Positions 146 to 50,370 of a stretch of DNA of 64,000 nucleotides are shown here, in pieces. A program made the position numbers and the translations under genes. Numbering within the stretch: the first letter of the stretch is position 1; every line of letters begins with the position of its first letter. Source of the DNA: Octopus sinensis (taxonomy: Eukaryota); the NCBI RefSeq assembly GCF_006345805.1, contig NC_043000.1, forward strand, positions 33,418,001 through 33,482,000, given 5' to 3'. A model generated the notes under the pieces. That model was not told the origin of the DNA and searched no databases. It was given only the letters and a program-made list of their open reading frames with translations.

Positions 146-461
146 TTAGGAGAGGAAAAATTATAATAAGGCAGAATGCTAAATTGAAGGTAAATTTTAA
201 TAAAAATGGGTGTATGGAAAATTAAAAAACAAAAAAATAATAAATCAAACCGGCTTTCATACCAGGCAAATTTTCAAGATTTGGAAGGGGAAAAGAAATT
301 AAAAAAAAAATTCTTTTCCCTTTCCAAATCTTGAAAATTTGCCTTGCAATGAAAACCGGTTTGATTTATTATTTTTTCTTTTTTAATTTTCTATACACCC
401 ATTTTTATTAAAATTTACTTTCAATTTAGCATTCTGCCTTATTATAATTTTTCCTCCCTAA
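146..461. repeat. ~315-bp imperfect palindrome (two ~155-bp inverted arms, A-rich centre) between (TA)n tracts; Penelope pLTR-like fold-back
   Basis: 146-300 (TTAGGAGAGGAAAAATTATAATAAGGCAGAATGC...) is the reverse complement of 309-461 (...GCATTCTGCCTTATTATAATTTTTCCTCCCTAA) with a few mismatches. The Penelope assignment is inferred. Confidence 0.85.
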
Positions 462-6560: not shown

Positions 6561-8415
6561 AGCAACACAATCCTTCGTCTTTCAGTAGATTCCTCTCTCT
6601 CGTTACGTAACCTACGTACCTCTCATCTCAACAACAACAAAAAAGATGTTTAATATTTAAAGTTATAGACATCAATTTTTACTTTAAAATATATTGAATA
6701 AAAAACTGTTATATATATTGAAATTTTATTTATATATTTACAATAAATCTTATTTCTATTGATATTTTTTTTTTGAGTTCACAATAGAAGCAAATTTATT
6801 AACAACATATTTTTACATGAAGAAAAAAAAGAATAAAAAATATAAAAGATCAAATTCCCGAGAAAAAAAGAACCTATAACTGCCTCACCAAAAAGAAAAA
6901 AAAAAAGAAAAAAGAAAAAAAAACAGAGACAAAATAGAAAAAAGAAAAAGAAAAGCGGAAGGGGAATTATGCAGCAAAGGAGGGGGAGGGTAAGGAGTCA
7001 CGGGTTTAGCTGTGTCTCACAGACATGATTGCAAGGGTGCTGTTGCGAAGAATGGCCAGTGACTCTCGCTGCTACAATCACGCCATATCGTAGGGCCCAT
7101 TTCTCTGACGGACCACAGTTATCCTGATTTTGTGGAGGAAATATTTAGAATATAATGGAAATTATTGAATATCCAGTGTTCGGGCTCCATGAACGTCGTT
7201 TCTCACCCAGAAACACTTACTCCGATTGGAATTGATATTATAATGCATTGTTTAGTTTAACAGAACTAAATGGTAAAGTTGGTGCTAATTATTGGTGAAC
7301 AGAAGCCATTAAAAGAAAGAAATCTCTTGTTTTCTATGATGTCCCGACGAAAACAGACGACTGTGATTTATGTTTCTTTAAGCTTTTATTTGCTGAAACA
7401 TTCTTTGCGGTTTTGGTGGGGAAGAATCGATTCTGCTGTTTTATTTTATTCTTAGACACCATGAAGTACTCTTGAAGAAATCACAGAGAAGAATCAACCA
7501 GTTATCTAACTCTAGACTATACATACCCCCGCCACAAACATATACAGTAAATATTGTATGCATCTAAGCTATTTACCCATCAATCAAACATACACCGGAC
7601 AAACCTACTCTATATACGCCTATAACGTACATTCGGTGAATATTGCATAAATCTAGACTGTTCACCCATTCAACAAACATTCAATAAATATATCAGAGAC
7701 AGTTGAATATTAGGTCCAGTTCTATGACCCTCTTCCCCTAACCCAGTCAAATGGAATCGTCAATGTGTGGCATTTGTCATTCTAAGAAAGAACAGTTTGT
7801 TTAGTTGTAAGGAAAATGTGAATCAGAGTTCTGAGTCCCTTCTGGCACTTAGTTTTATTGTCTCCCCCGAGAAGAAATCGTTCCTCAAACAATTCTTATC
7901 AGCGTTCACGTGTTTGACTCGTTTCATATTCCACCAGGATGCTTGTAAAAGTCTCAGCTAATAGCAGATTATATTTTATGCAAGACAATTCCCTAACATC
8001 GTTATATCAATCGTTTAGGACAACTGAGGAATGCCTTTTTGGTGCTATGAGCTTCCATGATGCTTCAGGAGAGGCCGGATCTCACTTAACTAAAGTGAAA
8101 AACCGGCTTCTCTCTTAATCAAATCTGCTGTTTAGGATAGAAAATATTCATACTTTTTTCAGTTGAACATTGTTGAGAATTCATTATTGACAGACGTTTA
8201 ATTATTTGCTGTCGACAATATTTACTGTATATATATGTTGTAAGTATATATGGACTATGTGTGTGTGTGTGTGTGTGTGTATGTGTGTGTGTGTGTGTGT
8301 GTATATTATTGTATTTCGGGACGGTCATTTTTTTGGTCGAATAAACACACGCACTATATATATTTTCTTCACTCGTTTATTACTGTTCTTATTTTATTAT
8401 TCTAGCTCATGTCCA

Positions 8416-8462
8416 TTGTCCGGAAATGTTTCGTCACGCATCTGTGACCTCTTCAGCGACAT
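8416..8462 (-). ncRNA. Minimal type I hammerhead ribozyme motif
   Basis: Minus strand: TGTCG-CTGAAGA-G-GTCAC AGATGC GTGAC-GAAA-CATTTC-CGGACA. Intact core, stem II, TGTC/GACA stem I. Confidence 0.7.
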
Positions 8463-8771
8463 TTCTTTTCCGTGTGTGTTCTTGCTCCTCTTATTCCATT
8501 CTGTTCTTCTAAGATGTGTATCCTTGTGTGTGCATGTGTTTGTGTGCATGTGTTTGTGTATGTGTGTGTGTCATAGTTTTTAGCAGCAGTGTGGCCTGCC
8601 CCTCACCCCCATCCTCTCACGCCATTTTGCTGCTGCTGTCCTAAGACCCCTCCCCCTAAAAAGTAAAAAAAAATAAATATAGTACAGTTCCTGTATGCGC
8701 ACACAACGATACACATCTTAGAAGAACAGAATGGTTTGTAAGTGGAGCAAGAACACACACGAAAACGAAAA

Positions 8772-8818
8772 GTGTCACTGAAGAGGTCACAGATGTGTGA
8801 CGAAAGATTTCCAGACAA
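8772..8818 (+). ncRNA. Minimal type I hammerhead ribozyme motif
   Basis: TGTCA-CTGAAGA(8778-8784)-G-GTCACA GATG TGTGAC-GAAA(8802-8805)-GATTTC-CAGACA. Confidence 0.7.
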
Positions 8819-9011
8819 TGGACACGAATTAGAATAATAAAATATGTAAAATAATAAACGAGCGAAGAAAAAGTTTATAGTTTGTGTGTTTATTTGACAA
8901 AAAAAAAAAGAAAAAAGAAAGAAAGAAATGACAATCCTGAAATACAACAATATCTTTTTCAACACACGATTTCACATCTTGCAAAATGAATTGATATATA
9001 TATATATGTAT

Positions 9012-9090
<79 letters not shown>

Positions 9091-9348
9091 TAATATTCCC
9101 TGTATGTTCTAAGGGTACATAGTTTAGAGCTATACAATTTTCATTGTACGTTTGTTGCATGGGTGTATACATTTTCACTGTATGTATGTATGCATTTTGT
9201 AGGAGTATATAGTCTTCAATATAGACATCATATTTCTTTTTAATCATAAGATGCTGCCTTATGCGAATGTAAGAAACCGTTATTGACTCTGAGAGACCTT
9301 ATTTTCACGGAGACTAATAACATACTTGTAGAATTCCTCTTTGAAACT

Positions 9349-18046: not shown

Positions 18047-18645
18047 AGGTGGTGAGCTGGCAGAACCGTTAGCACGCCGGGCGAAATGCGTAGCCGTATT
18101 TCGTCTGCCGCTACGTTCTGAGTTCAAATTCCGCTGAGGTCGACTTTGTCTTTCATCATTTCGGGGTCGATTAAATAAGTACCAGTTACGCACTGGGGTC
18201 GATATAATCGACTTAATCCGTTTGTCTGTCCTTGTTTGTTCTGTCTGTGTTTAGCCCCTTGTGGGTAGTAAAGAAATAGGTATTTCGTCTGCCGCTACGT
18301 TATGAGTTCAAATACCTCCGAGGTTGACTTTGCCTTTCATCCTTTCGGGGCCGATTAAATAAGTACCAGTTACGCACTGAGGTCGATATAATCGACTTAA
18401 TCCGTTTGTCTGTCCTTGTTTGTTCTCTCTGTGTTTAGCCCCTTGTGGGTAGTAAAGAAATAGGTATTTCGTCTGCTGCTACGTTCTGAGTTCAAATACC
18501 TCCGAGGTTGACTTTGCCTTTCATCCTTTCGGGGTCGATTAAATAAGTACCAGTTACGCACTGAGGTCGATATAATCGACTTAATCCGTTTGTCTGTCCT
18601 TGTTTGTCCCCTCTATGTTTAGCCCCTTGTGGGTAATACAGAAAT
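18047..18645 (+). mobile_element. SINE family B trimer (one head plus three 184-bp bodies)
   Basis: GTATTTCGTCTG restarts at 18096, 18280 and 18464. Confidence 0.9.
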
Positions 18646-19066
18646 TGGTAGTGATGGTGTCACAGACGCCGTATCCTTGGTATCATTGTTGTTATTTTTG
18701 TTGCTCCCACCATAGAATGTGTTGTGTCGGCGTTGGTGGTGGCGGCGTTGGTGGTGCTTTGGCTTAAGATGGTGAAAGCAGCGTCAAGACTGCTGTTCCA
18801 AATATTATTTACCTCCCTCCGTGACCTTATCAAAATCTTTGACGCTAAAGTTTGGTAGATTTTAAATGTTTAGGTTCCAGAAAAAGAAAATAACGAATCC
18901 TGACCCCATTCAAAAGGGCGAAAACAAAACGGAACTGACCAGTTCCTCTGGATCCTCGTCAGTTTAGCAACAAAACAAGAACAGTTTTTACCGTAGGCTT
19001 AAAACAGTTGAAATAAAGAGAACTAACGAGCGATTTGAAGGGGCGTTCTACAGAAACACCACCACC

Positions 19067-19098
<32 letters not shown>

Positions 19099-19197
19099 CA
19101 ATATAAATAATTATTATTATAGCCATCAATCAGCATAATCATCATGATCATTGTCATATCATCATCATCATCATCATCATCACCATCATCATCGTCG

Positions 19198-19249
<52 letters not shown>

Positions 19250-19813
19250 TCGTCGTCGTCGTCGTCGTCGTCGTCATCGTCGTTGTCAAATGATAATGAA
19301 GATCAAATAAAATCGATATCAACTTCCGAAGAAAACTAATCAGCTTGGTTCACCTTTATTGACATATTGATGCTGACCTTTGACCTGTGTATGTCCAATG
19401 CTGTGTGTGTGTGTGTGTGTGTGTGAGTGAGAATGAGAGAAAGAGAAAGAGAAAGTGAAGGAGAGAGAACGTGGAGAGAGAAAGAGAAGGAGAGTGAGAG
19501 ACAGAGAAAGAGAAACATTGAGAGAGAAAGAAAGAGATAGCTATTGTAAAGATGAAATGATGTGAGCGAACGAGAGAGAGAAAGAGAGAGAGAAGGACAA
19601 AGAGTGGGAGGGACAGAAGTACTGAGCGTGAGGCAATGAAGTTATGACGTCATCGGGTTCGATTAAACATTAACTCTATGTAAGTCTACGAGATAATTAG
19701 ATAATCGTTGCTCAAGATGGAGTTTTATTAGACATCTTGGAAAGGGAAGCGTGTTTGGGTGACGACAACAGCGTCGTTAGGGAAATTGTTATTGTATGTT
19801 GAAGAACTTACGG

Positions 19814-19868
<55 letters not shown>

Positions 19869-20058
19869 ACACATAACTCATACAGACACGTTCATATATA
19901 CACATACACACACACACACTAATAGAGCACACACACATACTAATGCAACGCACACATTCATATATACATATCTACATCCACATACACACTCAAACACACT
20001 AATGCAAAACACACACATATACACACACACACTAATGCAACACACACACATTCATATA

Positions 20059-20476
20059 TATTTCTTTACTACCCACAAGGGGCTAAACATAGAGTGGACA
20101 AACAAGGACGGACAAAGGGATTAAGTCGATTACATCGACCCCAGTGCGAAACTGGTACTTTATTTGTCGACCCTGAAAGGATGAAATGCAAAGTCGACCT
20201 CGGCTGAATTTGAACTCAGAACGTAACGACAGACGAAATACCTATTTCTTTATTACCCACAAGGGGCTAAAGACAGAGGGGACAAACAAGGACAGACATA
20301 GGTATTAAGTCGATTACATCGACCTCAGTGCGTAACTGGTACTTAATTTATCGACCACGAAAGGATGAAAGGCAAAGTCGACCTCGGCGGAATTTGAACT
20401 CACAACGTAACGGCAGCCGAAATACTCCTAAGCATTTCGTCCGGCGCGCTAGCGTTTCTGCCAGCTCGCCACCTTT
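20059..20476 (-). mobile_element. SINE family B dimer
   Basis: Two bodies joined at GAAATACCTATTTC; one head ending GCCAGCTCGCCACCTT. Confidence 0.9.
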
Positions 20477-21377: not shown

Positions 21378-21614
21378 TATTTCTTTACTACCCACAAGGG
21401 GCTAAACACAGAGAGGACAAACAAGGACAGACAAACGGATTTAGTTGATTATATCGACCTCAGTGCGTAACTGGTACTTAATTTATAGACCCCGAAAGGA
21501 TAAAAGGCAAAGTCGACCTCGGTGGAATTTGAACTCAGAACGTAGCGGCAGATGAAATACCACTAAGCATTTCGCCCGGCGTGCTAACGTTCTGGCAGCT
21601 CGCCGCCTTATTGT
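21378..21614 (-). mobile_element. SINE family B monomer with TSD
   Basis: TSD CCCCTGGG(A/G)CAATACC at 21362-21377 / 21615-21630. Confidence 0.9.
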
Positions 21615-21729
21615 CCCCTGGGGCAATACCGCCTCAGCCTTAGCGTGCGTGTGTGTCTACATATATTCATACATACACATACATATTAATATACATCCAT
21701 CCACACACACACACACACACACACACACG

Positions 21730-22500
21730 CGCGCGCGCGCCATGATATCGATGTTTTAATGTTAAACAACTGAAAGATGACGACTGCAGTAAAGAAAACC
21801 TGAAAGGGAGAGAATTCCGACGGGAAGTCATTCGGCGGAGGAAGGATTGGGATTTGTTTGTGTGAAACCTGAGAAATGGGTAACAATAGGGGTGGATGGT
21901 GGAGGGGTGAGGTGACAGAAGAGGCAGAGTGAAGAGCATCTTGGAGAAGAGATTGGAATATATTGGTGAGTTCCTGGCAATGTGTCAGATACGGTGTACA
22001 ATGTTTATATAGGAGTAGCTCCGCGTCACATATGGCAGCTATATTCCATGGTGGACGTCACTTCATCTTTGTAAAGATCTATTAGTGGCTGTCGCTTGCT
22101 GCAATATTTTATGACTCTGACCACGAAGAGCAGGATTTGGGGTGAAGTTGTTATGTTTAGGACGTGCGGTCACCAGACGAGATTACCAAGAATGTGTGAG
22201 CGGATGTCGACTTTGAAGGTTCGAGTTGGGTTATGTTTATCTTTGAAGGATTGTGGGATACGACAAGGGTTGCTGGTGTGAGCAGCGATGGTGTTGGTGA
22301 AGGAGACAAGATCAATATTGTGGAGTTTTCGGGAATGTTTTCGAGGTGTATGATGAAGAGGGCAGTGAAGGAGTGATGTCAGATATGTTTGGCAGAATGT
22401 GATGGTTCTCAAGTGTGGAATACTTTGGAAGAGTGAAGAGGGTAGCATCCGTGTAGGGGGTGATTGCAAGTAGAACCATCCTGACTGAGATGTCTGTGGA
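21730..22500 (-). pseudogene. Decayed LINE ORF2 3' region (CR1/Jockey-like)
   Basis: Minus strand LIDLYKDEVTSTMEYSCHM*RGA matches the LLxLYKxxVRPxMEYCSHIWxGA motif. Confidence 0.6.
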
Positions 22501-22706
22501 GATCTTTCTGGAAAGGGATATTAAACAACAAAAACATCTAAAAAAAAAAACAACTAAAAAAAAAAAAAAACAAAACAAAAACGATCGGTTGCAGTTTGAG
22601 AAACGATAGATTAGCAAGATGTGTGATGCATGGAGATATTGGTATTCCTGCAGGAGTTCAGTAAAAGACAACCAGTTTGTAGGGGTGCTGGTGGTGAAGG
22701 TGATAT

Positions 22707-23092
22707 TGCAGCTAATTACAAAAATGAAAGGCAAAGTAAATTCCGAAGGCGTTTGAACTCAGAAAATAATGCCGGACGAAATGCCGATAAGCATTTTGTC
22801 CGGCGCGGTGACGATCCTGCCAGCCAATTGCCTTAGATGAACAATATATCGAAAGATAATTCAATATATGTTGTTTTAAAGGCGGCGAGCTGGCAGAGAC
22901 GTTAGCACACCGGGCGAAATGCTTATCGGTATTTCGTCTGTCTTTACGTTCTGAGTTCAAATTCCGCCGAGGTCAACTTTGCTTTTTATCCTTTCGGGGT
23001 CGATAAATTAAGTACCAGTTGCGTACTGGGATCGATATAATCGACAGGTCCCCTCCCACTTTATTTCGAGCCTTGTGCCCTGAGTAGAAAAG
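22707..23092. mobile_element. Two divergent SINE B copies (22707-22834 minus, partial; 22879-23092 plus, with tail type 2)
   Basis: The plus copy has TSD AATATATG(T/C)TGTTTTA (22863-22878 / 23093-23108). Confidence 0.85.
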
Positions 23093-25691: not shown

Positions 25692-26150
25692 AATGGTTGT
25701 GCGGTGAGAAGCTTGCTTCCTAACGGGTTCGGTCCTACTGCGTGGCATCTTGGGCAGGTGTCCTCTGCCGAGGTCGACTTTGCCTTTCATCCTTTCGGGG
25801 TCGATAAATTAAGTACCAATTACGCACTGGGGTTGATATAATCGACTTAATCCGTTTGTCTGTCCTTGTTTGTCCCCTCTATGTTTAGCCCCTTGTGGGT
25901 AATAAACATATATATATATATGTGTGTGTGTGTATTGACCCCACCACCAGCACCAGTACCACCAGCACCACCAGCACCAGCACCACCACCACCACCACCA
26001 CTGGACAACCGGTGTTGGTTTGTTTACGTCCCCATAACTTAGCGGTTCGGCAAAGGCAACCGATATAACTAGTACCAGGCTTTAAAAAGTTGTGGTATCG
26101 ATTCGTTCGAATAAAATATGGCCTGCAGTCTAATGACTGAAACAAATAGA

Positions 26151-26189
<39 letters not shown>

Positions 26190-26372
26190 TCAGTCATTTG
26201 ACTACGGTCATGCTGGATCAATGTCTTTAATCGAACGAATCGAACCCAGGACTTATTCTTTGTAAGCCTAGTACTTATTCTATCGGTCGCTTTTGCCGAA
26301 CCGCTAAGTTAGGGGGACGTAGACACACCAACATCGGTTGTAAAGCGATGGTGGTGGGACAAACACAGACAA
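25692..26372. mobile_element. SINE mosaic: A head, B body (25767-25906), A 3' half, then an inverted A 3' half (26185-26372)
   Basis: Each segment aligns to other copies in the window. Confidence 0.8.
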
Positions 26373-26387
26373 TATGCAATATGATTC

Positions 26388-26989
26388 TTATTTTTTTACT
26401 GTCCACAAGGGACTACACACAGAGAGGGCAAACAAGGACAGACAAACGGATTAAGTCGATTATATCGACCCCAGTGCGTAACTGGTACTTATTTAATCGA
26501 CCCCGAAAGGATAAAAGGGAAAGACGACCTCGGCGGAATTTTAACTCAGAGCGTAGCGGCAGACGAAATACCTATTTCTTTACTACCCACAAGGGGCTAA
26601 ACACAGAGAGGACAAACAAGGACAGACAAACGGATTAAGTCGACTATATCGACCCCAGTACGTAACTGGTACTTATTTAATCGACCCCGAAAGGATGAAA
26701 GGTAAAGTCGACCTCGGCGAAATTTGGACTCAGAACGTAGCATCAGACGAAATATCTATTTCTTTATTACCCACAAGGGGCTAAACACAGAGGGGACAAA
26801 CAAGGACAGACATAGGTATTAAGTCGATTACATCGACCCCAGTGCGTAACTGGTACTTAATTTATCGACCCCGAAAGGATGAAAGGCAAAGTCGACCTCG
26901 GCGGAATTTGAACTCACAACGTAACGCAGACGAAATACCGTTAAGCATTTCGCCCGGTGTGCTAACGTTTCTGCCGACTCGCCGCCTTA
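26388..26989 (-). mobile_element. SINE family B trimer
   Basis: Three bodies, one head at ~26935-26989. Confidence 0.9.
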
Positions 26990-30267: not shown

Positions 30268-33147
30268 GGCCAGGCATGTCAATGAACCTCCTAAGTGGAA
30301 AGTAGCGATACAAAAAGAGATTGAATCTCTGCGGGCGGATGTTTCAGTTCTCGATGAGCTTGCTAGAGGAGTGAATATTAAGTCGAGGAAAGCTAGAAAA
30401 ATCAAGCAAAAATATAAAATCAAAGATCTCATAAACCACCCTGCAACTAAGGAACTGTTGAAACAACGGATACAGTTGAAAGCCCAACGGCTTAGAAGGT
30501 ATGACAAAAGAAACAAATTTTATCGACAAAATAAATTTTTTAAGACAGATGCAAAGAAATTTTATAGGGAAATTGGCAAAAATAAAATACACATAGAAGA
30601 TCCACCTAAGATTGAGGAAGTGGAGGAGTTCTGGAAGAAGGTATGGAGCAACGAAAAAGAGTTTAATGCTGAGGCTGACTGGATAGAACGTGAGATGAAC
30701 TTGAAGAACAGAAATGGGAAGCAATAGGAATAGAGGAGCTAAGGTGTGTCCTTAGGAAGGCTCATAAATGGAAAACTCCAGGACTAGATCGGATCCCTAA
30801 CTTCTGGCTGAATTGTTTGACAGAGGTACACGAAAATCTCGCTGCATCTCTGTCTGATGTCATTCATAACCCAGAGCAAATACCTGCTTGGCTGACTGAA
30901 GGAACCACCTACCTATTACCTAAAACCGAAGACACAAAAAACCCAAAGAATTACCGGCCAATAACATGTCTCAACACCACCTACAAAATCCTCACATCCA
31001 TAATAACGGAGAGAATGTACGCTTTCCTTGAACAAAACTCTATCCTTCCACAAGCTCAAAAAGGTTGTAAAAGAAACTTTATGGGTGCAAAGACCAATTG
31101 CTCATAAACAGAATGATTGTAGAGAATTGCCGGAGCAAAAAAAAAAAACCTGAGTATGGCATGGATAGACTACAGGAAAGCGTATGACAGTGTCCCACAT
31201 AAATGGATACTCAAGGCCTTGAGATACAAGATCTCTCCTGTCGTCTCAAAATTCTAGTAATGGGATGAGCCAGTCCAACAGCATCAACATCAAACGAGGC
31301 ATCTTTCAAGGTGACTCCCTCTCTCCATTACTTTTTTGCATGGCACTGATCCCACTCTCAAACGAATTGGATAGTACCAGATATGGGTACAAAGTTTTTA
31401 GTAAGTTAATAAACCACCTTTTCTATATGGACGACCTAAAGCTGTTTGCCAGGAATGAGCAAGAGCGCTAGAAGGGCTGCTAACAACTGTTAAAGAGTTT
31501 AGCAATGATATCGGAATGGATTTTGGCCTTGATAAGTGTGCTAAAGCAACTTTTGTAAGAGGCAAGCTCAGGCAAACAGCTTCTGTTAAATTAGATATTG
31601 ACACTACCATCAAGGAACTTGACCCACAAGAAAGTTACAAATACCTAGGAATCAACGAAGGAGATGGTATACATCATGCTACTATGAAGGAAAAAAATAG
31701 AAAGGAATACTATAGGAGAATAAGGCTTGTACTGAAGACTGAACTCAACTCCAAAAATTGCATTGAGGCCATTAACACCCTGGCGCTTCCAGTAGTCCAG
31801 TACAGTTTTAACATCATTAACTGGAACCTTACGAAACTCCAACGCTTGGACAGGAAGACAAGAAAATTACTGACAACCAAGAGCATGCACCACCCTAAGG
31901 CAGATGTAGACCGCCTGTACCTACCTAGAAGCAACGGGGGGAGAGGAATGATGCAATTAGAGCTGTGCTATAAGACCTCTACTGTAGGAATGAACAGGTA
32001 CCTATCTAGTACAAAGGACTGGATGCTGCGACTTGTGTGCGAACACGAAAGCAGCAAAAAGCTGCATTCTATTGTCAAGGAAGCCTATAAGTTCGAAAGG
32101 GAACTAGACATTAACCTTGAATCAGATGAAGAGCCGGAAACCACTGCTACCAAGCAAGCAAAGCGAATCAAGCAGACTGCAAAAAGAACGGGCAGCAAAA
32201 TCAAATTGAGAAGCGGTGGAGCCAGAAGCCCCTGCATGGACAACAATATATTCTCCGAAGCCAAAATGCTGATGTAGACCAAGCAACAACCCATCAGTGG
32301 CTGAAGAGTTCTGGATTGAAAGCAGAGACTGAAGGCTTCATAATGGCAGCACAAGATCAAAGCTTCTTTACCAGAAATTACCAGGCTAACGTTCTCCGAA
32401 ACGGTACTGACCCTAAATGCAGATTCTGTGACACATTTGACGAAACGATAGACCATCTCGTTTCAGGATGTCCTGTGCTGACACCAAACGAATACAAAAA
32501 TCGCCACGATAGGGTAGGACAGTATATACATTGGAAGATATGTAAATACTACAAATTCGACACTCCTGCTAACTGGTATGAACACATCCTCAGCCAGTTG
32601 TTGAAGGTAAGGATGTCACCATCCTCTGGGATTTTCAGTCAACACTGGACAGAACGATCAAGGCTAATCGACCAGACATAATGGTAAAGACAGAAGGAAA
32701 AATACCTGCAGACTAATAGAGGTAAGCGTCCCCACTGATAAAAATGTATCTGTAAAGGAATTGACAAACTTAGTAATATAAGGACCTGGAAATCGAAATA
32801 CAAAAGATGTGGAATCTTAAAACAAAAACTGTTCCTGTTATTGTAGGTGCCCTAGGTATGATAAAAAAGGGATGTCAGAAACACCTAGACAATATCCCTG
32901 GAGAACCATGTCTCAAGGAAATCCAAAAGATTGGTGCTAACAAGTACTGCCCACATCCTTAGAAAAACCCTATCAATGTAAATGTTTGTGTTTGTATACA
33001 TGGAGATATTTCTCTACTTCCCCCCCCAAGCTTTCAACTATATTTCAACAACTCTTAACCTTCACTTGCCCTAGGCGCTGCGGGTGTGCCCGGCAGTGAT
33101 TGCATCAAACATGCAGATAATAAAAGTAAATGACAATGATGATAAAA
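30267..33147 (+). mobile_element. R4/Dong-clade non-LTR retrotransposon (RT plus restriction-like endonuclease), 5'-truncated and frameshifted
   Basis: RT motifs NYRPITCL, WIDYRKAYDSVPH, GIFQGDSLSPLLF, YMDDLKL, YKYLGI, GGRG. Then CRFC...ETIDHLVSGC, RHDRV and RPDI; stop at 32981. (TAA)n on both sides. Confidence 0.93.
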
Positions 33148-50102: not shown

Positions 50103-50160
<58 letters not shown>

Positions 50161-50163
<3 letters not shown>

Positions 50164-50370
50164 GTTTTTGGATTATTTATATGAGTTCGTGTGTTGAAGC
50201 ATATTCTGTTGTGTCTTGAGAGAGTCATTTTCTTTTTGTGCCTGAAAAGGTTGCAAGACGCAACGAAAATTTTAGGAAAATAAAAACACGAAATAAGTGG
50301 AAATTTTACCGGTGAGTGTGTTAAATTATAAGGCAAAAAAAGAAAATGACTCTCCCCAGACACAACAGTG
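50161..50370. mobile_element. Short element in (TA)n with 38-bp inverted arms and a hammerhead-like motif
   Basis: Arms 50206-50243 / 50331-50368. CTGAAAA-G-GTTGC AAGAC GCAAC-GAAA-ATTTTA at 50242-50274. Confidence 0.65.

What the first reader, a model, noticed from the sequence alone, without database searches (positions are those of the whole stretch)
8303..8953. Second, unrelated inverted element with two intact hammerhead cores
Seen: two diverged inverted arms both keep CTGAAGA, the GTCAC/GTGAC stem II and GAAA unchanged while flanking bases differ. TGTC/GACA can form stem I. Stem III (CATTTC / GATTTC) is one or two changes away from the palindromic CATGTC type. Inference: a solo pLTR/retrozyme-like family, and the best candidate here for residual self-cleavage. 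Read-through transcription would also give a ~230-bp dsRNA.
Basis: partly seen in the sequence, partly recalled or inferred. Interest (0 to 1): 0.72.

Follow-up and report, generated by a model that had tools for sequence, protein, structure and literature searches.

The report
Decayed head-to-head Penelope retrotransposon ends
This is an ordinary old insertion: two back-to-back, truncated ends of a Penelope-type jumping gene with hundreds of near-identical relatives in this genome, each carrying a hammerhead ribozyme motif with a damaged stem that likely no longer cuts RNA here.

Summary
The two inverted arms and both hammerhead cores are real. They are two 5'-truncated 3' ends (pLTRs) of a Penelope-like retrotransposon, joined head-to-head at a 2-bp overlap (8695-8696), with the family tail on the right end only, between microsatellites. 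Longer copies elsewhere run into a decayed RT plus GIY-YIG ORF, so this is neither a solo-only family nor a retrozyme. The arrangement is common: 33 of 89 sampled loci have a head-to-head partner. The family motif fits the published minimal type I hammerhead. Its helix III is GAUU, self-complementary through G.U pairs, not a decayed CAUG. The core is better conserved than the flanks across copies (4.4% vs 8.6%), which points to selection while the family was active. This locus is a poor candidate for cleavage. The left arm breaks helix III, the right arm breaks helix I, and read-through on either strand is predicted to bury the ribozyme in a long duplex. The genome holds 34 unmutated copies of the ribozyme. 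No expression evidence was obtained. Side finding: a younger sister family (at least 2,594 copies) carries C at the conserved A9.

The parts
8303..8696 (-). Left copy: 5'-truncated 3' end of the Penelope-like element (about 390 bp of 3' UTR/pLTR), without tail
   Evidence: BLAST to family copy L024 covers 8303-8696; 5.7% non-CpG divergence from the family majority
8695..8995 (+). Right copy: shorter 5'-truncated 3' end, with the family tail (about 8953-8995)
   Evidence: BLAST to L002, L014, L024 covers 8695 to 8996-9011; 8.2% non-CpG divergence; end placed by eye before the TA run
8695..8696 (.). Head-to-head junction; the two bases AT belong to both copies (microhomology)
   Evidence: Overlap of the two L024 alignments and sequence
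8417..8461 (-). Left minimal type I hammerhead: C3 at 8456, GAAA 8432-8429, loop CAUU, predicted cut between 8423 and 8422. Helix I as in the family; G15.2>C at 8428 breaks the helix III self-complement; helix II 5 bp (change at 8438)
   Evidence: helix III self-duplex +2.8 vs 0.0 kcal/mol for the family type
8773..8817 (+). Right minimal type I hammerhead: C3 at 8778, GAAA 8802-8805, loop GAUU, predicted cut between 8811 and 8812. Helices II and III as in the family; two CpG-type changes (8777, 8813) break helix I next to the cleavage site
8258..8302 (.). (TG)n microsatellite at the left boundary
   Evidence: sequence
8996..9091 (.). (TA)n then (GATA)n microsatellite at the right boundary; no target-site duplication discernible
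   Evidence: sequence

Best explanation
The feature is a head-to-head pair of 5'-truncated 3' ends of a Penelope-like retrotransposon, likely laid down in one insertion event and since decaying, whose minimal hammerheads are predicted not to cleave at this locus. Shown: family identity, linkage to an RT plus GIY-YIG ORF in longer copies, junction, tail, frequency of the arrangement, stem lesions in each arm. Inferred: the element's RT/endonuclease primed reverse transcription at a microsatellite and made a second, inverted, truncated copy in the same event; the ribozyme was under selection in source elements, where it would work as a dimer through the A-GAUU-U wobble palindrome, perhaps with protein help; after insertion both arms drifted. 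Predicted: a read-through RNA of either strand makes the antisense arm first and traps the ribozyme in a duplex; only transcripts starting between the two ribozymes would carry a free, single, damaged one.
For: Family: 3,075 first-look candidates, 40 scored, 46 matches at 75-88% besides the self hit; 401 exact core-plus-helix II matches. Linkage: of 16 long regions fetched, 7 hold both ORF remnants (tblastn with the sister ORF, up to E 8e-179) and this pLTR; Pfam RVT_1 E 1.4e-5, GIY-YIG E 0.017, both below cut-off; CX4CXXC linker in L047. Arrangement: 33 of 89 loci have a head-to-head partner, 20 of 89 with both arms over the ribozyme, 5 of those 20 with both cores complete; published as typical of PLEs (PMC8557442, PMC3846280, PMC4209133). 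Decay: arms differ at 24 of 193 with only 2 shared derived bases, matching their separate distances (5.7%, 8.2%) from the family majority; CpG sites in the ribozyme decay like flank CpGs (G12 13/84, C11.1 23/85, helix I 91/331; flanks 164/712). Selection in sources: of 12 linked subfamily alleles none is at a core base and the one in the ribozyme is N7; helix I pair 2.1-1.1 is G-C here and A-U in the sister family. Trapping: P(paired to the other arm) 0.93 and 0.95.
Against: Core conservation across copies (4.4% vs 8.6%; still 4.4% vs 7.7%, P 0.0003, after removing linked alleles) is stronger than pure neutral decay predicts, and the two explanations (selection in many source lineages; selection after insertion) are not cleanly separated. 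The rare-allele test (14/836 vs 89/4173, P 0.5) is weak because common transitions exceed its threshold. Core and free ribozyme positions do not differ significantly (37/836 vs 34/501, P 0.08), so a local mutation-rate effect is possible. Pfam scores are below curated cut-offs. No cleavage was measured, and folding is an equilibrium prediction.
Confidence: 0.9

Rival explanations
1. One or both arms keep residual self-cleavage, for example from divergent transcripts starting near the junction that pair as trans-dimers with RNA of other copies, with or without the element's protein.
For: All 11 core bases and C17 are intact in both arms. The left arm keeps helix I; the right arm keeps helices II and III. 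Bidirectional promoter motifs have been suggested for pLTRs (PMC3846280 passages). A PLE hammerhead was shown to be protein-assisted (PMC11167929 passages).
Against: Each arm has a lesion in a helix adjoining the core. Even unmutated minimal hammerheads gave no monomer cleavage and low dimer cleavage in vitro (PMC4209133). Intact cores are common in this family (47 of 89).
Confidence: 0.07
2. A non-autonomous retrozyme-like family that moves as hammerhead-bounded tandem units.
For: Most copies are short and non-coding; animal retrozymes are proposed to derive from PLE pLTRs (bioRxiv 10.64898/2026.07.22.740005).
Against: Two same-strand ribozymes within 3 kb in only 2 of 89 loci, against 18 with opposite-strand pairs. 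Copies share a 3' end and extend 5' to variable lengths into an RT-EN ORF.
Confidence: 0.02
3. The locus is a selected, co-opted source of double-stranded RNA (editing substrate or small-RNA precursor).
For: Very stable predicted hairpin.
Against: The arms have diverged as expected for independent decay, with no sign of homogenisation. The structure is common in the family. No host gene was identified: 4 of 47 long ORFs of the window had a Pfam match, 2 of them RT-related, none near the locus.
Confidence: 0.03

Closest known systems
EN+ Penelope-like elements with a zinc-finger-like linker (Neptune/Nematis clades), as described in PMC8557442 and PMC3846280
   Same: RT followed by CX2-5CXXC linker and C-terminal GIY-YIG in longer copies; heavy 5' truncation; inverted 5'-truncated copy adjacent at the 5' end; tail at one end only; insertion in microsatellites; hammerhead in the pLTR.
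   Different: This locus holds no coding sequence (tblastn of the sister ORF on the window found nothing). The tail is about 40-45 bp. Neptune versus Nematis was not resolved.
Minimal type I hammerheads of metazoan PLEs (PMC4209133)
   Same: CUGANGA and GAAA boxes, extra nucleotide between 9 and 10.1, G10.1-C11.1 pair, long helix II (6 bp), short helix I, tiny self-complementary helix III, opposite-strand pairs 100-700 bp apart (322 bp here).
   Different: Helix III is palindromic only through G.U pairs (A-GAUU-U); 9 of 89 copies have the strict palindrome AAUU. Both arms at this locus carry helix lesions.
Animal non-LTR retrozymes (bioRxiv 10.64898/2026.07.22.740005)
   Same: Type I hammerhead in a short non-coding repeat related to PLE pLTRs.
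   Different: No tandem arrays; the family has its own ORF-bearing copies.

Membership tests
EN+ Penelope-like element | RT domain in the same element | tested here: met
   In family copies, not at this locus: L049 ORF hits RVT_1, E 1.4e-5, 25.4 bits (cut-off 29.6), has a YVDD motif and lies upstream of the same pLTR.
EN+ Penelope-like element | C-terminal GIY-YIG endonuclease after RT | tested here: met
   L008 ORF upstream of the pLTR: Pfam GIY-YIG E 0.017, below cut-off; motif VVYSLRC..YIGETAR..H seen directly; order RT-EN-pLTR from tblastn.
EN+ Penelope-like element | pLTR with hammerhead, 5' truncation, inverted 5' copy, tail at one end | tested here: met
Neptune/Nematis clades | CX2-5CXXC linker between RT and EN | tested here: met
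   CTKNNCIVC in L047; CTDNYCTVC in the sister family; definition from PMC8557442 passages.
Neptune (versus Nematis) | RT phylogeny with reference elements | not tested
   No reference sequences were fetched.
Minimal type I hammerhead of PLEs | Core boxes CUGANGA, GAAA, UH; extra base 9/10.1; G10.1-C11.1 | tested here: met
   Both arms.
Minimal type I hammerhead of PLEs | Self-complementary 15.2-16.2 and loop 3 | tested here: inconclusive
   Met for the family majority and right arm with G.U pairs; not met for the left arm (CAUU).
Minimal type I hammerhead of PLEs | Helix I closed next to the cleavage site | tested here: inconclusive
   Met for the family majority and left arm; not met for the right arm (A.C at 2.1-1.1).
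Minimal type I hammerhead of PLEs | Site-specific self-cleavage as a dimer | not testable with these tools
   Needs an in vitro assay.
Non-LTR retrozyme | Tandem units each with a hammerhead | tested here: not met
   2 of 89 loci have two same-strand ribozymes within 3 kb; the window holds only the two inverted copies.
Non-LTR retrozyme | No coding capacity in the family | tested here: not met

The most novel reading that the evidence does not exclude
This family (canonical A9, wobble-palindrome helix III) and its younger sister family (C at position 9 in 97 of 100 listed copies, at least 2,594 copies) form a natural experiment: the A9 ribozyme cleaves as a G.U-paired dimer, while the C9 ribozyme keeps its helices yet cannot cleave, showing that Penelope elements conserve the hammerhead fold for a role other than catalysis.
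Probability: 0.2. Interest if true: 0.5.

Novelty: new member of a known kind. Interest (0 to 1): 0.15.

Why it matters
The locus itself matters little: it is a fossil example of a published Penelope insertion pattern and ribozyme type. The family comparison has modest value. What PLE hammerheads are for is described as unclear (PMC8557442 passages), and catalytic mutants did not affect insertion in vitro (PMC11167929 passages). A pair of related families, one with a canonical core and one with a nearly fixed change at A9, offers a cheap test of whether cleavage is needed.

Tried and rejected
Rfam scan of the window: no hammerhead among the 150 rows shown of 251; hits were microsatellite-driven miRNA models. 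CATGTC ancestry of helix III: rejected. DNA-transposon/MITE reading of the inverted arms: rejected, since the arms are unequal 3' ends of a retroelement. First core-versus-flank estimate (6.4% vs 16.7%) was discarded because non-homologous ends inflated the flanks; redone with local alignments. RNA: no RNA holder listed; this says nothing on expression. Contigs of 4 runs laid on 8575-8895 came mostly from other family copies; none spans the stretch, and 8652-8684 has no cover in any run, so neither transcription, editing nor orthology of this locus could be read from them. The A>G differences there are at the two CpG-type sites where this copy departs from the family and occur in all four runs; they are not editing evidence. 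Host-gene search by Pfam on 47 of 77 long ORFs found nothing near the locus. tblastn of the sister ORF on the window: no hit. Earlier findings near this place: none. The paper on dimer-cleaving PLE hammerhead variants (Lunse, Weinberg, Breaker; cited in PMC6765202) could not be read. Search 'hammerhead' + 'A9C' gave 0 papers; 'Penelope' + 'hammerhead' + 'mollusc' gave 7 listed, none on this family by title or abstract start (the taxon word was my guess and rests on no call).

Full report
Observation. The window lies at G000:C4:33418001-33482000 of a 2.72-Gb genome. The arms align at 85.8% over 212 columns (8328-8535 against 8695-8906) and extend to about 8303 and 8957. The 651-nt stretch folds at -329 kcal/mol, z -35.9. 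Both arms read CTGAAGA-G-GTCAC...GTGAC-GAAA, C3 at 8778 (+) and 8456 (-). The arms differ at 24 of 193 positions, so keeping 11 given bases identical has a chance of about 0.23: the pair alone does not show selection.

What it is. A search with the right arm gave 3,075 first-look candidates, of which 40 were scored. Copies share the 3' end and extend 5' to variable lengths. Longer copies run into a decayed ORF. L008 has a GIY-YIG-like segment (Pfam E 0.017), L049 an RT segment (RVT_1 E 1.4e-5); both are below Pfam cut-offs. Searching with the L008 segment found a younger sister family with open frames of up to 914 aa in the order RT, CX4CXXC linker, GIY-YIG. Of 16 long regions fetched, 7 (L046-L049, L052, L053, L058) hold both ORF remnants and this pLTR. 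The linker places the family with Neptune/Nematis by the definition in PMC8557442 (passages); no tree was built. At the locus the left copy spans 8303-8696 on the minus strand and the right copy 8695 to about 8995 on the plus strand. They overlap by the two bases AT, the tail is on the right only, and the flanks are (TG)n and (TA)n/(GATA)n. An inverted 5'-truncated copy at the 5' end, a one-sided tail and microsatellite targets are described as typical (PMC8557442 and PMC3846280, passages). Opposite-strand minimal hammerheads 100-700 bp apart are reported in PMC4209133 (parts 1-2 of 4 read).

Sample. To avoid selecting on the core I took copies by exact flank anchors: 29 loci (first 30 of 44 matches, the window's own dropped) and 60 of the 106 matches (taken in listed order, skipping 8 places already held, the window's two arms and 3 second members of close pairs). 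Anchors were excluded from counts. Exact anchors favour less decayed copies; skipping loci works the other way. Of these 89 loci, 33 have a head-to-head partner, 20 with both arms covering the ribozyme, and 5 of the 20 have both cores complete. Two same-strand ribozymes within 3 kb occur in 2 of 89. So the architecture is routine and the family is not retrozyme-like in the sense of bioRxiv 10.64898/2026.07.22.740005 (part 1 of 5 read).

The ribozyme. The family form has the extra base between 9 and 10.1, G10.1-C11.1, a 6-bp helix II and a short helix I, as in the published minimal hammerhead. Helix III/loop 3 is GATT in 63 of 89, AATT in 9 and CATT in none. A-GAUU-U is self-complementary with two G.U pairs (direct reading; duplex energy only 0.0 kcal/mol), so it need not be a decayed CAUG. 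The sister family keeps G15.2 with C16.2 and has A-U where this family has G-C at pair 2.1-1.1; this is one compensatory event, not many. Among 30 loci picked on the core alone, several have divergent upstream flanks, so subfamilies share the ribozyme.

Core against flanks. Non-CpG divergence is 37/836 (4.4%) in the core and 756/8741 (8.6%) in the flanks; base-matched P 0.0004; the 29 loci with a 3' anchor alone give 3.0% vs 8.9%. For selection in source elements rather than after insertion: none of 12 linked subfamily alleles is at a core base and the only one inside the ribozyme is N7; CpG sites in the ribozyme decay about as flank CpGs do; rare alleles are about equally frequent (1.7% vs 2.1%, P 0.5, a weak test). 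Against a clean reading: the gap persists after linked alleles are removed (4.4% vs 7.7%), and free positions in the ribozyme are not significantly more variable than the core (P 0.08).

This locus. All core bases plus H17 are present in 47 of 89 copies, and 24 of 89 also pass a helix screen; neither arm passes. The left arm has C for G15.2 (helix III self-duplex +2.8 kcal/mol) and a 5-bp helix II. The right arm has two CpG-type changes that open helix I beside the cleavage site. The genome holds 34 exact unmutated 45-nt ribozymes, two of them as an opposite-strand pair 774 bp apart on C23, and 401 exact core-plus-helix II matches. Because the copies are head-to-head, read-through on either strand makes the antisense arm first; ribozyme bases pair with the other arm with mean probability 0.93 (+) and 0.95 (-). 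The duplex and the ribozyme are thus alternatives, not additive features. The two arms also lie on opposite strands and cannot supply each other's dimer partner in one RNA. Published minimal hammerheads show no monomer and low dimer cleavage, and one PLE hammerhead needed protein and was dispensable for insertion in vitro (PMC11167929, passages). Further background came from passages of PMC6765202 and PMC6155905. No supplements were read; those of PMC4209133 and PMC8557442 may already list this family.

Verdict. An old, ordinary Penelope-like insertion (median family divergence 7.6%, arms 5.7% and 8.2%); new member of a known kind; interest 0.15. The best lead is outside the finding: the sister family has at least 2,594 anchor-matched copies and C at position 9 in 97 of the 100 listed (counted by eye; 28 of 30 by script). 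That A9 is a conserved core base follows from the CUGANGA descriptor; that changing it impairs cleavage is recalled, not taken from a call. One search for it in print found nothing, but the most relevant paper on PLE hammerhead variants could not be read.

Noticed in passing
L043, L044, L054-L057, L149-L178 (G000): Younger sister PLE family with near-intact ORFs (to 914 aa) and at least 2,594 hammerhead copies reading CUGAUG-C-G: C at the conserved A9 in 97 of 100 listed; loop 3 GAAC.
   Followed up: partly
   Followed up: no
window 50106-50270: Match to the sister family's 3' end (80% over 107 bp) next to a degenerate hammerhead-like motif at 50242 (+).
   Followed up: no
window 52496 (-) and 54061 (+): Two related CTGATCA...GAAA motifs on opposite strands about 1.5 kb apart, possibly another head-to-head pair.
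   Followed up: no
window 18280-20425, 21444-23045, 25764-26905: Inverted pairs of a very common short repeat found in 43-48 of the other fetched loci.
   Followed up: partly
window 152-456: AT-rich near-perfect hairpin (149-nt arms, 7-nt loop, 86%) with no match in the other fetched loci; MITE-like.
   Followed up: no
window 30694-32678 (+): Fragments of a LINE-like element (RVT_1 and zf-RVT, below cut-off).
   Followed up: no
G000:C23:16169222-16170040: Opposite-strand pair with two unmutated ribozymes of this family: a better test locus than the one in the window.
   Followed up: no
L044:160-1440 (-): A second, asparagine-rich 427-aa ORF ending in a GIY-YIG-like segment next to the sister element; likely another PLE.
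   Followed up: no
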